Shown here one piece after another: positions 24,580 through 29,462 of a DNA stretch of 64,000 nucleotides (the first letter of the stretch is position 1; each line of letters opens with the position of its first letter). Both the position numbers and the translations under genes were made by a program. A model generated the notes under the pieces. The model saw only the letters and a list, made by a program, of their open reading frames with translations. It did no database searches and had not been told where the DNA came from. Origin of the DNA: Folioceros fuciformis (lineage: Eukaryota); NCBI GenBank assembly GCA_049999805.1, contig JBNGIO010006406.1, positions 161,129 through 225,128 of the forward strand, given 5' to 3'.

Positions 24580-25911
24580 ATGGCGGAGCTGAGGGCGGTG
24601 CTGCCGCTTCCCAACCGCGGTCTTCACAGGGTGCAATGCGAGGTTCCTCTTGGGACGCTCCAGCTGCTGTCGCTCCGGCGGCAGCAGCAGCGGCGGGGCC
24701 TGGAGGTGCGGGCTGTGGCCGCGCCTGTAGCCCAGGTTCGGGACCTGCGCAAGCAGATTCTGGAGGAGGAGGTGGAGAGGAAGAATTTCCGCATCCGGGA
24801 GGTGGACACCACTGAGCCTGTGGAATGGCACGCGGGCACCGTGCTCAGGGTGGCTGAGGTGGTACCGGGGGTGCGAGCCGTGACGCTGGAGACGGAGTGT
24901 TCCCGGGAGGTCAGTGTCTGTTTGTGGGCTGTCACGGAAATCTGCATTGCTGCATTGGCTGATCCTGGGGTGTGGACGGGGGTGTCCTTAGCTGGTGAAG
25001 CGGGCCAATGCCTACTTGAAGCCCGGGCAGCTGGCCCAGGTGAGGATCGGGGAGGAGGTGGTGACGGTGGCGTCGTCCAGCCCTCCGTTTCCTAAGGAGA
25101 ACAACGAGCCCGTGCTGTACAAGGTCCGGGGGGACATCCCTGCCGGGACCACCAAGGTTCCGCAGTACTCCTTGTCTGTGCTCGCTCCTCTGGACCTACA
25201 TGTGCAGGAGACGACTGCTCGGGCCTTGTACAATGTGAAGGAAGGTGGGCAAGGTTGCTGGTTGCTGGAGCTGCCGATCAAAATCCCGTTGTCCATTGCG
25301 CACTCAGTGACATGGTTTTGCGGGTGGGCTGGCAGGGGACGAAGTGCAGGTGGGGCCGTTCCTGCCCACGGGGCTGGACCTCAGGCCGGTCATGTTCATC
25401 AACCGCTTCTCCACTCTGCTCATCTTCGCACAAGGGGATGGGATTGCGGTGGCTCGAGCCATGGTCGAAACCCAGGACGGCAATGTGGGCACCCTGAACT
25501 TGAGCATGCGGCAACAGACGAGGCTGTTCTACTCGGCTCCCCAACCATCTCTGATTGCTTACCGGGTACGCGCAGACTCTAGTCTATGCCTTGAGTGGCT
25601 TATGCCGTTTCCTTTTCCTGCTATCTGCAAAGGCAGGAGGACTTTGCTGAGCTGCTTGGCTGCAGGAGAAGTTCGACGAGTGGGAAGCCAGGAAAGTGGA
25701 CATCCGCACCACAGTGGACACCGATGCCGGGGAAGCCTGGGACGGGTTTGTGGGCTCCTTGAGTACTTTGTGGGACGAGGATGACATCGAGTATGATCCA
25801 GAGACCACCGCTGCCCTGGTCTGCGCGGAGAAGGATCAACGAGAAAGCATCAAATCCCTTCTCACAGACGCTGGCATCCCTGACCAGCAAGTTGTTTTTT
25901 GGGAAGCTTGA
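24580..25911 (+). CDS. FNR-like FAD/NAD(P)-binding oxidoreductase-fold protein (pKIWI502-like), probable plastid; exons 24580-24909, 24992-25244, 25336-25565, 25666-25911
   Basis: Transit-peptide-like N-terminus (...GLEVRAVAAP); AYLKPGQLAQVRI; VQVGPFLPTGLDL; LLIFAQGDGIA; RLFYSA; IAYREKFDEWE; WDGFVG; AALVC. The order matches the pKIWI502/FNR-like family. Confidence 0.75.
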
Positions 25912-26651: not shown

Positions 26652-28553
26652 ATGGCGATGTCGATGCCGAGGATGAGGGCTCGCGGCACTGCGACGCTGT
26701 GCCTCGCGCTTGTGCTGGTCGCTTCTGCCCTCACAGCAGCTCAGGTTCCCATGCACCTCCCTCCTGTGGCATTTTCGGAAGCGGGATCTCTGGCGTTCTC
26801 TGTCTGTTCTTGCCTGCTGCGAGGAGACTTAATCCGTGAGCTGCTCCGGGGAAAGTCCGAATGTCGGTTTTCTTGACCTCGTGTTTGTTGACATTGTTTG
26901 AGCCTGGTTTCTTGGCTGATGAAACGTTTTACGCCTCCTTGTTCTGGAAGCTGCTTTTTTGAGGCCATCTCCGTAGACGGTGCAGCAGTAGTTTGAGTAC
27001 TAAGCGGAGACGACGATTGCTAGAAAGCATGACCGAATTGCAAGTAAACGATGGGAAAACTGTCACGCGCTTGAAGGATTGCACCGCATGATTTCATGTG
27101 GGAGCTTGCGTGTATCTGCCATGCTGCCTTGGATGTGCTGCGGCTTGGCACTCGAGGTGGCACTGCTGGAATGTTCTGTGCGGCGTCGTCAGCTGATCTG
27201 ATTCTCTGCTGTATTTATGTGGTGATGATGTCCAGGTACTTGTAAGTTCATGGATTTGCAATGGTTTTGCAGGCTAAGAGTAAGGAAAGTCTGGAGGAGA
27301 TTACTCATAAAGTCTTCTTTGATATTGACATCGATGGCACAAGGGCTGGTGTGTTCTTCTCGTCCTATCATGGCGCAAGCTTTAATTTGAGTGTTATTCG
27401 ACAATGTTGGTAACCTGGGTGAGTCTTTGGCTTTGCAGGGCGGGTGGAAATTGGGCTCTTTGGCAAAGCTGTCCCCAAGACAGTGGGTCTGTTCTGAGTC
27501 CTTCACGTTTCAGTGACGAATAAGTTTTTTTTTTTTTTTGGTGCACTCGTTGTTTGATGTCGACTTATTCTTATCAATCGTGTCTGTGCTTCTTTCCTGT
27601 GCAGAAAATTTCCGTGCCTTGTGCACAGGTGCGAGTCACTGAATCCGTGAGACTTCGTGCAAAATGCTGTCATCCTATTTCTTTTGGCTGACTGGGAATT
27701 ATGCTTCTGTAGGTGAGAAAGGGAAAGGGTTGATGGGCAAGAACCTGCATTTCAAGGGGAGCGTGTTCCACCGAATTATCCCGAGTTTCATGATCCAAGG
27801 TGGTGATATCACACATGGGAACGGCCGAGGTGGAGAGTCGATCTTCGGCGAGAAGTTTGCTGATGAGAACTTCAAGCTGAAGCATACTGGAGCAGGTATT
27901 GATTTCTCGTCCTGACTGTGCCGTCTTCCAGCTCCTGCGGTTAGCCCGTCCTCAGATTGGACCCGCCTATTTTGTGCAGGTATTTTGTCCATGGCAAACG
28001 CGGGACCCAACACCAATGGATCGCAGTTCTTCATCACTACAGTCAAGACTAGCTGGTGAGTAAGGACTGCACCCGACCAACTCCCGCACAGCAGTCAGTC
28101 TCATGGTCCGTCCGAGTGTAGGGAGAGGGGTCTGAATGCAGTACGCATTTTCAGAGGTCGAGTCAGCCGAAGATGATCGTACTTTCCACTTTTACAGGTT
28201 AGATGGGCAACATGTTGTCTTTGGGAAGGTCACGAGCGGTATGGATTTTGTTTACATGGCCGAGGGGGCCGGCAGTCTGAGTGGACACCCCAGAAAGACT
28301 GTCAAAATTGTTAAGTCCGGGGAGATCCCTCGTAGCAAGTGGAGACGTAGCAGGCCTGGCCTGATGTCCGTGTGAGTCGGTGACATCTCTGTTCTGTTGT
28401 ATGTCCGCTTGAAGGTTGGATGGAAAGCATGTGGTGTTCGGGAAGGTTATCGGCGGCATGGACGTTGTGTACAAAGTGGAGGCGGAGGGCACCCAGGGCG
28501 GAACTCCAAGAAAGACCATCTCCATCGCCGACAGCGGTGAAATACCTCTGTAG
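26652..28553 (+). CDS. Secretory-pathway cyclophilin (PPIase) with signal peptide; 6 shared exons plus two alternative last exons (28198-28375 and 28415-28553)
   Basis: Signal peptide [93 protein letters not shown]; then two separate LDGxHVVFGKV exons. Confidence 0.95.
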
Positions 28554-29462
28554 AAGGGCGATGAATTGGTTTTTTTTAATTCGGACCAATGTCTGCTTGG
28601 GACCCAATGACTGTCCCACATCCTTCTTCCCGTTAAAATATTACTCAAAACTAAACTGTCCCCTTGCCTGGTGGCGGGAGCTTGTCTCGTGGCTTTCGCT
28701 CCAAATCGATTTCCTCCTGGAGGTGTGTACCATGATCCCTCTTTGGCGCCGCAACAGAACTTGCCTTAAATAGAAATTGAAGTCGATGATCCTCGCGCTG
28801 CAGCTGGTTCCGGCAGCCTGATCCGCGGAGCAACAGCTGCTACCATTGCTACTCTCGCCGTGGCGCCAGGCTCGTGAGGCTGATGTCGGTCAAGCCTGTT
28901 CTCCTTGCACCGTTCCGACTGTAGGGATCTGGAGGCGGGAACAAAGATTCCACACGAGTCAATACATTTGAGCAAAGCAGAGGATGGTCTGGAAACGAGA
29001 TTTGTGGAAAAGTTGTCTTGCGTTCGTCAGCAATTTTGTGCGCTAGAGTCTCTGTGGAGGAGTTACGTGACCCTGTAGGGCGGCCGGGGTAGAGATCTTC
29101 AAGCTGAGGAAGCACCGAAAACGGGCGCAGATCCATGTCGGAACATAAATTTCCCCGGCTTAGATTTTCGGCCACAGGTGGAGGATTTGTTTGAGCTCAG
29201 GATATTGCTGTATGGAATATTGTTGTTCCAGGAGGTTGATATCGATCTCTAATCCTGAACCGGAAGATTGGCAGCAGCGTTATGACGCTCGAACTGGATT
29301 GTCTTCACAGGTCGGCGTCTTGCAATTTTTACCGGCAGAGACAGGAACAAGGCCAGGCTATGGTACTTGAGGAATTGCAACACTTAGAAATTGGCTCAAG
29401 GCCTTCGGGTACAGTAGGAGAGGACGCTGGTTCACAGCTTGCCCCGCTCACTGCAACCTCAG

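What the first reader, a model, noticed from the sequence alone, without database searches (positions are those of the whole stretch)
28198..28553. One cyclophilin gene with two tandem, alternative last exons resembling two different angiosperm paralogs
Seen: exon 6 ends mid-codon in the active-site Trp (AGC TG|gtgag, 28055). Two downstream acceptors each complete it in frame. Exon 7a (tacag|28198) gives [58 protein letters not shown]. Exon 7b (aag|28415) gives [45 protein letters not shown]. Both are intact, diverged at the DNA level and conserved at the protein level, which argues for selection on both. From recall, 7a resembles the CYP21-1-type C-terminus (GAG..SG.PRK..V...SGEIP..KW) and 7b the CYP19-4/CYP20-1 type (KVEAEG.Q.GTP...IADSGE.PL). 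Inference: one locus makes two secretory PPIases by alternative splicing or polyadenylation. This could be the ancestral state later split into separate genes.
Basis: partly seen in the sequence, partly recalled or inferred. Interest (0 to 1): 0.75.

Follow-up and report, generated by a model that had tools for sequence, protein, structure and literature searches.

The report
Hornwort cyclophilin with two alternative ends
A hornwort gene for a protein-folding enzyme carries two interchangeable last exons, each resembling the end of a different, separate gene of flowering plants, so one gene appears to do the job that flowering plants give to two.

Summary
Observation confirmed. A seven-exon secretory cyclophilin of a hornwort-like genome has two tandem homologous last exons, 7a and 7b, both in frame after the split Trp codon. 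One RNA-derived run splices exon 6 to 7b and skips 7a. The hornwort Nothoceros aenigmaticus has two assembled transcripts identical through residue 166, one ending 7a-type and one 7b-type; 7a is the better conserved (41/45 against 35/45). In three trees 7a joins seed-plant CYP21-1 (support 99-100) while 7b lies among CYP19-4/20-1, but AU tests do not reject a hornwort-only duplication (p about 0.3). No separate CYP21-1 gene was found in this assembly. The shared exons are CYP20-like. Only 39 nt separate the 7a stop from the 7b acceptor, so competing 3' splice sites are likelier than alternative polyadenylation. Whether this is the ancestral state later split into two genes, or a later chimera as in SYP13II, is unresolved. 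A 7a-like exon that may come from Sphagnum is an unverified lead.

The parts
26652..26744 (+). exon 1, coding part: start codon and hydrophobic signal-peptide-like segment
   Evidence: model; GT..AG joint 26741-27270; 12-residue window, mean hydropathy 2.9, from residue 16
27273..27348 (+). exon 2 (shared)
27439..27486 (+). exon 3 (shared)
27605..27628 (+). exon 4 (shared, 24 nt)
27713..27895 (+). exon 5 (shared; catalytic Arg101 and Phe106/Met107/Gln109)
27980..28055 (+). exon 6 (shared), ends in phase 2 inside the Trp167 codon; single donor for both last exons
28056..28197 (+). 142-nt intron to exon 7a; CAG acceptor, 13 of 17 pyrimidines before it
   Evidence: use not seen in run X1; use inferred from the Nothoceros isoform
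28198..28375 (+). alternative last exon 7a (CYP21-1-like end, Lys-Trp tail, then a 10-residue extension not conserved in Nothoceros)
28376..28414 (+). 39-nt spacer: T-rich tract and AAG acceptor of exon 7b, with a branch-point-like GTGAC 35 nt upstream of the exon
   Evidence: acceptor use shown
28415..28553 (+). alternative last exon 7b, coding part (CYP19-4/CYP20-1-type end); the major form in the one run laid
28554..29000 (+). 3' UTR, continuing 124 letters beyond the stretch laid; presumed shared by both isoforms
   Evidence: contig 4; sharing is inference

Best explanation
One gene for an ER/secretory-type cyclophilin (peptidyl-prolyl isomerase) makes two full-domain proteins. The single donor after exon 6 chooses between two competing 3' splice sites 217 nt apart. 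The far site (7b) gives the CYP19-4/20-1-type enzyme and is the major form; the near site (7a) gives a form with a CYP21-1-type end, in whose mRNA exon 7b becomes 3' UTR and the poly(A) site is shared. The swap replaces the last quarter of the domain: the active-site residues Trp167, Leu168 and His172 are kept, while the surface around them and the tail change (net charge of the last exon +6 against -1 here, +4 against -1 in Nothoceros), so the two forms most likely share catalysis and differ in partners, clients or retention in the secretory pathway. History: the last exon duplicated in tandem before bryophytes and vascular plants split; hornworts kept both exons in one gene, while in the line to seed plants the whole gene duplicated and each copy kept one exon (CYP21-1 kept a, CYP19-4/20-1/21-2 kept b). 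Shown: anatomy, exon 6-7b splice, both isoforms in Nothoceros, conservation of 7a. Inferred: use of 7a in this species (about 0.85), shared poly(A) site (0.8), 7a homologous by descent to the CYP21-1 last exon (0.75-0.8), direction 'one gene, later split' (about 0.6 given that), functional difference (not tested).
For: Anatomy. Splice to 7b and all five upstream introns GT..AG at depth 255 in run X1. Nothoceros aenigmaticus Trinity gene DN356_c0_g1 isoforms i1 (P0122) and i3 (P0033) are identical through residue 166 and then diverge into 7a-type and 7b-type ends. Window against Nothoceros: 7a 41/45, 7b 35/45, shared domain 117/126; cross comparisons 28-30/45. Exon trees unite 7a with CYP21-1: 100/100 (48 rows, 51 columns), 99/99 (44 rows, core 45 columns without the tail), 100/100 (45 rows, LG+G4). 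Trp at exon position 48 in 112 of 112 CYP21-1-type ends, 0 of 112 CYP20-type ends, and in both hornwort 7a exons. CYP21-1 genes start their last exon at the same motif and none of 34 CYP21-1-type loci held shows a second last exon (many contigs are short or are transcripts). No other CYP21-1- or CYP20-type gene in G000: four searches return this locus first and then only other subfamilies. Shared exons are 76-91% identical to 19 CYP20-type proteins and 64-74% to 8 CYP21-1 proteins, group with bryophyte CYP20-type sequences, and CYP21-1 falls, weakly, among angiosperm CYP20-type rows, as a later whole-gene duplication predicts.
Against: Run X1 has no contig on 7a and no joint to 28198, and its main contig skips it, although contigs drop rare forms. 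AU tests do not reject a clade of hornwort 7a plus 7b (p 0.287; 0.303) nor of all a-type plus all bryophyte b-type exons (p 0.113). By raw identity the CYP21-1 last exon is as close to window 7b (30.5/45) as to 7a (30.6/45) (same: 63 and 64 bits). CYP21-1 has a one-residue insertion that 7a lacks, and hornwort 7a and 7b share Arg-Lys-Thr/Ser at positions 32-34 where most CYP20-type ends differ. Both 7a and CYP21-1 sit on long branches. The shared-exon tree does not fix the order of events (AU p 0.48 and 0.30 for the two opposite constraints; outgroup not on one side). None of the 62 proteins listed for nine moss- or liverwort-type clusters had a 7a-type end. The assembly has 7240 contigs and may be incomplete. 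Trinity isoforms can be chimeric.
Confidence: 0.55

Rival explanations
1. Later chimera: CYP21-1 and CYP20-1 were already separate genes in the land-plant ancestor; in hornworts (or bryophytes) unequal crossover or a deletion between tandem paralogs placed the CYP21-1 last exon inside the CYP20-type gene, and the rest of CYP21-1 was lost. Present-day working is the same as in the best explanation; only the direction differs.
For: Exactly this is reported for eudicot SYP13II syntaxins, chimeric by unequal crossover between paralog clades and making two isoforms (PMC9158536, passages). AU test does not reject CYP21-1 branching outside all CYP20-type bodies including the hornwort one (p 0.30), nor the hornwort body grouping with CYP21-1 (p 0.48).
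Against: The best tree puts CYP21-1 bodies among angiosperm CYP20-type rows (lnL 9.2 better, not significant). No CYP21-1 gene named from a bryophyte, lycophyte or alga appeared among the 120 listed of 582 hits, but that list is cut and dominated by angiosperms.
Confidence: 0.22
2. Hornwort- or bryophyte-only tandem duplication of exon 7b; 7a diverged on its own and resembles CYP21-1 by convergence and long-branch attraction.
For: AU p 0.29-0.30 and 0.11; shared Arg-Lys-Thr/Ser at 32-34 in hornwort 7a and 7b; 7a lacks the CYP21-1 insertion; equal raw identity of CYP21-1 to window 7a and 7b.
Against: Support 99-100 for 7a plus CYP21-1 in three trees; the tail with Trp at position 48 (112/112 against 0/112) is not used by the likelihood where b-type rows have gaps, so it is extra evidence; Gly-Ala at 23-24 and Lys/His at 30 also match. 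The shared 32-34 motif could come from conversion between neighbouring exons or be ancestral.
Confidence: 0.15
3. In this species exon 7a is no longer used, or only as noise; it is a recently silenced remnant of an isoform still made in Nothoceros.
For: The one run laid skips 7a with no contig on it, while contigs of depth 3.9-5.3 were kept elsewhere in the stretch; the stop after the conserved Trp has been lost or moved, adding 10 residues.
Against: Frame intact, CAG acceptor with the joint-highest pyrimidine count (13 of 17) of the seven acceptors of this gene, 41/45 identity to Nothoceros, higher than for 7b. One run, contigs only.
Confidence: 0.08

Closest known systems
Eudicot SYP13II / Medicago SYP132 alpha and beta syntaxins (PMC9158536, passages; the primary papers Huisman 2016 and Pan 2016 were not read)
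   Same: A plant gene with two homologous last exons giving two proteins whose ends correspond to what other lineages keep in separate paralogous genes.
   Different: SYP13II is described as a late chimera from unequal crossover within eudicots and is switched by alternative polyadenylation; here the spacer leaves no evident room for a second poly(A) site, the swapped piece is part of a catalytic domain, and the arrangement is shared by at least two hornwort genera.
Splice isoform separation of mutually exclusive homologous exons in vertebrates: CALU, MARVELD3, U2AF1, CDC42 (PMC4494069, abstract and section 7)
   Same: Homologous alternative exons in one gene in some lineages, one exon per paralog in others; exon trees group by exon type. 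MARVELD3 is likewise a pair of last exons.
   Different: Those cases are vertebrate and the direction was fixed by outgroups; here the direction is not fixed and the clade is land plants.
Angiosperm ER-type cyclophilins CYP19-4, CYP20-1, CYP21-1, CYP21-2 (PMC6358970 and PMC3012604, passages)
   Same: Signal peptide, single PF00160 domain, last exon starting at the same Trp-Leu-Asp-Gly motif; isoform B is CYP19-4/20-1-type throughout.
   Different: Separate genes with one last exon each; isoform A is a mosaic of a CYP20-like body and a CYP21-1-like end.
Rice OsCYP19-4 splice variants (PMC4964526, abstract)
   Same: Alternative splicing in the same subfamily, with isoform-specific location and activity.
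   Different: Intron retention and exon skipping that alter or truncate the domain; no duplicated exon is mentioned in the abstract.

Membership tests
Cyclophilin-type PPIase (PF00160) | Complete domain above the Pfam cut-off with either last exon | tested here: met
   Nothoceros isoforms 158.7 and 163.4 bits over positions 4-157 and 4-156 of 159; each window exon covers positions 117-156/157
Cyclophilin-type PPIase (PF00160) | Active-site residues retained (cyclophilin A numbering R55, F60, M61, Q63, A101, N102, F113, W121, L122, H126, recalled) | tested here: met
   R101, F106, M107, Q109, A147, N148, F159, W167, L168, H172 in both window isoforms, located by motif
Cyclophilin-type PPIase (PF00160) | PPIase activity and cyclosporin binding of each isoform | not testable with these tools
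   needs an enzyme assay
ER-type CYP19-4/CYP20-1 group | Shared exons and exon 7b closest to named CYP19-4/20-1 proteins; N-terminal hydrophobic signal segment | tested here: met
   (76-91% against 64-74% to CYP21-1); ER location itself not tested
CYP21-1 group (whole gene) | Whole domain groups with CYP21-1 | tested here: not met
   Shared exons group with bryophyte CYP20-type rows in the best tree, though the constraint with CYP21-1 is not rejected (p 0.48). The gene is not filed as CYP21-1.
CYP21-1 group (last exon only) | Exon 7a forms a clade with CYP21-1 last exons and shares their tail | tested here: inconclusive
   Support 99-100 and Trp48 in 112/112 against 0/112; but AU p about 0.3 for the alternative, and the CYP21-1 one-residue insertion is missing
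Alternatively spliced homologous (tandem-duplicated) exons | Two homologous exons, same phase, each joined to the same upstream exon in transcripts | tested here: met
   both joins in Nothoceros transcript-derived proteins; in this species only the 7b join is seen
Splice isoform separation after gene duplication | Two-exon state is ancestral and each paralog kept one exon | tested here: inconclusive
   One last exon in 34 of 34 CYP21-1-type loci held; direction unresolved
SYP13II-type switch by alternative polyadenylation | Own poly(A) site after the first last exon | tested here: inconclusive
   39-nt spacer holding the 7b acceptor elements; no AATAAA-like word between 28056 and 28553, one at 28636; plant signals are degenerate and no 3'-end reads were available

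The most novel reading that the evidence does not exclude
The last common ancestor of land plants had a single ER cyclophilin gene with two alternative last exons; hornworts, and probably peat mosses, still run this splice switch, while seed plants fixed the two isoforms as the separate genes CYP20-1 and CYP21-1. It would be a protein-diversifying homologous-exon switch as old as land plants and a deep plant case of splice isoform separation.
Probability: 0.4. Interest if true: 0.7.

Novelty: new member of a known kind. Interest (0 to 1): 0.52.

Why it matters
Conserved alternative splicing that yields two intact proteins is thought uncommon in plants (PMC2674458, passage: few events have conserved effects at protein level). 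This locus is such a case and ties it to two named seed-plant paralogs. It offers a natural swap experiment: the same enzyme body with a CYP20-type or a CYP21-1-type end, which points to the last exon as the part that first set CYP21-1 apart, a gene whose location was still unverified in PMC3012604 and for which the review passages read give no function. It also makes the question 'isoforms first, genes later, or the reverse' testable with existing bryophyte, lycophyte and fern genomes, and warns that annotations listing only the 7b form would score CYP21-1 as absent from hornworts.

Tried and rejected
Run search: no RNA holder on record; one run listed, whose spliced GT..AG joints show it is transcript-derived. 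Lack of cover on 7a in its contigs is not taken as proof of silence. Homolog search with exon 7a alone against longer proteins: 5 candidates, none scored. Scan of genome contigs with P0128 to reach its DNA: 435 pattern matches, none confirmed. ESM Atlas with P0128: generic cyclophilin clusters, no taxa. AlphaFold2 of the Nothoceros A isoform with a 48-row alignment: mean pLDDT 51.9, not used. PDB search: cyclophilins only, nothing that bears on the exon choice. The idea that the longer angiosperm 'CYP20-1 isoform X1' entries carry a 7a-type end was rejected: their ends are b-type. Column counts for positions 23-24 are partly circular, as those positions were in the filter that sorted the rows; only positions 30, 47 and 48 are independent of it, and the CYP21-1 set was fetched with a profile containing 7a. 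dN/dS could not be computed (no Nothoceros DNA). Earlier findings of this scan: nothing by sequence, place or the first word set. Pfam found nothing for three exon pieces of the upstream gene.

Full report
Observation. The + strand from 26652 to 28553 holds a seven-exon cyclophilin gene. Exon 6 ends at 28055 after two bases of the Trp codon. Of all AG dinucleotides between 28056 and 28430, two restore the cyclophilin frame and motif: 28198 (exon 7a, isoform A, 225 aa) and 28415 (exon 7b, isoform B, 212 aa). Each exon alone matches the last 40 positions of PF00160 above its cut-off. They are 28/45 identical in protein; identity by codon position is 36, 33 and 18 of 45, and 16 of the 28 identical residues have different codons.

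Organism. The genome G000 has 87 Mb in 7240 contigs. The best single-domain relative of exon 5 is from the hornwort Nothoceros aenigmaticus (92%), and the shared domain groups with it at 99/85 (117/126 identical). I therefore treat the window as hornwort-like; this rests on this one gene.

Transcripts. One run was listed, not on record as RNA. Its contigs show all five upstream introns and a joint that skips 359 nt from exon 6 to 7b, all GT..AG, at depth 255; no contig lies on 7a and no joint leads to it. So isoform B is the major form in that run; contigs drop rare forms, so A is neither shown nor excluded here. The decisive evidence came from Nothoceros: the cluster of P0033 has 2 members, isoforms i3 and i1 of one Trinity gene, identical through residue 166, one ending b-type and one a-type. 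Between the two hornworts 7a is 41/45 identical, 7b 35/45, and a against b 28-30/45. Exon 7a is thus older than the split of these two hornworts and at least as constrained as 7b. The ten residues after its Lys-Trp are missing in Nothoceros and are probably a local extension.

Which paralogs. Exon 7b matches the ends of named CYP19-4/CYP20-1 proteins from mosses to angiosperms. A phmmer search with 7a over 1.84 billion representatives gave, after three two-domain proteins, a run of ends with 61-69% identity; those with names are CYP21-1 or unnamed plant proteins (three of ten named CYP21-1 or CYP21-1-like). Trees of the last exon join both hornwort 7a exons with CYP21-1 at 100/100, at 99/99 with the tail, three long outgroup rows and P0128 left out, and at 100/100 under LG+G4; bootstraps had not fully settled and columns are few. 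A Trp at exon position 48 is in 112 of 112 CYP21-1-type ends (of 115 ids, sorted by a pattern filter), in 0 of 112 CYP20-type ends (of 136 ids; 7 non-plant-looking rows dropped by hand, the rest lacking the exon or the pattern) and in both 7a exons. Against: AU tests do not reject a hornwort a+b clade (p 0.287, 0.303) or an all-bryophyte a+b clade (p 0.113); raw identity of CYP21-1 ends to window 7a and 7b is equal (30.6 and 30.5 of 45; for Nothoceros 32.6 and 29.8); CYP21-1 has a one-residue insertion absent from 7a; hornwort a and b share a three-residue motif at 32-34. I put homology by descent of 7a and the CYP21-1 end at 0.75-0.8.

Rest of the gene and of the genome. The shared exons are 76-91% identical to 19 CYP20-type rows and 64-74% to 8 CYP21-1 rows, and group with bryophyte CYP20-type proteins; CYP21-1 forms a long-branched clade placed weakly among angiosperm CYP20-type rows. 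Constraining the hornwort body with CYP21-1 (p 0.48) or placing CYP21-1 outside all others (p 0.30) is not rejected. A PF00160 scan (31 matches; sorted by tblastn, 19 loci printed) and searches with 7a and with two CYP21-1 pieces found no second gene of either type in G000; the assembly may be incomplete. Of 62 metagenome loci, 34 are CYP21-1-type, begin the last exon at the same motif where genomic, and each has one last exon within the DNA held.

A lead beyond hornworts. P0128 and P0399 (unnamed, ENA and Logan) are genomic last-exon peptides with the same acceptor position, 30/44 identical to 7a and 24/44 to 7b, grouping with hornwort 7a at 93/100 and 95/85 but lacking the Lys-Trp tail. P0128 is listed on an ENA contig of 5868 nt, the same source and length as P0040, whose exon 5 is 61/62 identical to a Sphagnum gene annotated with a b-type end. 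If they share a contig, peat moss also carries both exons. I could not fetch that DNA, and none of the 62 proteins listed for nine moss- or liverwort-type clusters has an a-type end. This is an inference from matching lengths, not a result.

Mechanism. The 7a stop lies 39 nt before the 7b acceptor, and this spacer holds a branch-point-like word and the T-rich tract; no AATAAA-like word lies before 28636. The simplest reading is one donor with two competing acceptors and one poly(A) region, exon 7b being 3' UTR in isoform A (inferred). The near acceptor is CAG with 13 of 17 pyrimidines, the far one AAG with 11 of 17, yet the far one dominates in the run seen, which suggests active repression of 7a or tissue-limited use (inferred). 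Both proteins keep the signal-like segment and all ten active-site residues located by motif (cyclophilin A equivalents recalled); the last exon differs in net charge, +6 against -1 here and +4 against -1 in Nothoceros. Most likely both are active isomerases with different partners or location. A structure prediction was too poor to use.

Comparison with what is known. Arabidopsis CYP19-4, CYP20-1, CYP21-1 and CYP21-2 are predicted ER proteins encoded by separate genes (PMC6358970, passages); rice CYP19-4 and CYP21-1 are about equally similar to Chlamydomonas CYN20-1, read there as an ancestral gene, and the location of CYP21-1 was unverified (PMC3012604, passages). Rice CYP19-4 is alternatively spliced by intron retention and skipping (PMC4964526, abstract). 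Separation of homologous alternative exons into paralogs is documented in 11 vertebrate cases (PMC4494069, abstract and section 7). That is the reverse direction and the main rival. Ten literature searches (listings seen, passages also read in PMC2674458, PMC5306129, PMC3266260, PMC7641896) showed no report of this cyclophilin arrangement. The library lacks most subscription papers, I read no supplements, and hornwort annotation files or exon-duplication catalogues may already list both isoforms.

Verdict. A real, conserved pair of alternative homologous last exons in a hornwort secretory cyclophilin, each most like a different seed-plant paralog. A new member of a known but, in plants, seldom documented kind. 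Its value rises if the moss lead holds and the direction proves to be one gene first, two genes later (about 0.4). Interest 0.52.

Noticed in passing
P0128 and P0399 (unnamed) with P0040: A 7a-like last exon without the Lys-Trp tail, listed on a contig of the same source and length as a Sphagnum-like exon 5; possibly the same two-exon arrangement in peat moss.
   Followed up: partly
L038:220-852: Unnamed transcript encoding a complete CYP21-1 that is closer to the hornwort gene than angiosperm CYP21-1s are (74% in the shared part, Gln at exon position 4 like 7a); may be from an early-branching vascular plant and would be a key row once its lineage is known.
   Followed up: partly
window 28340-28414: A weak GT donor inside the 3' end of 7a could in principle join 7a to 7b in frame over a short intron; no transcript support seen.
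   Followed up: no
window 26849-27058: Low-depth (3.9) contig inside intron 1 in run X1: retained intron, pre-mRNA or DNA.
   Followed up: no
window 24580-25911 (+): Upstream spliced gene with a transit-peptide-like start; three exon pieces had no Pfam match. From recall it resembles plastid FAD/NAD(P)-binding oxidoreductase-like proteins; untested.
   Followed up: partly
L007 and L012 (G000 C6762, C1024): Two loci with similar cyclophilin domains of one nuclear-type subfamily in this genome; subfamily label not tested.
   Followed up: no
P0053, P0056, P0110: A liverwort-type secretory cyclophilin paralog (Calypogeia and two unnamed) with a b-type end extended by seven residues.
   Followed up: no
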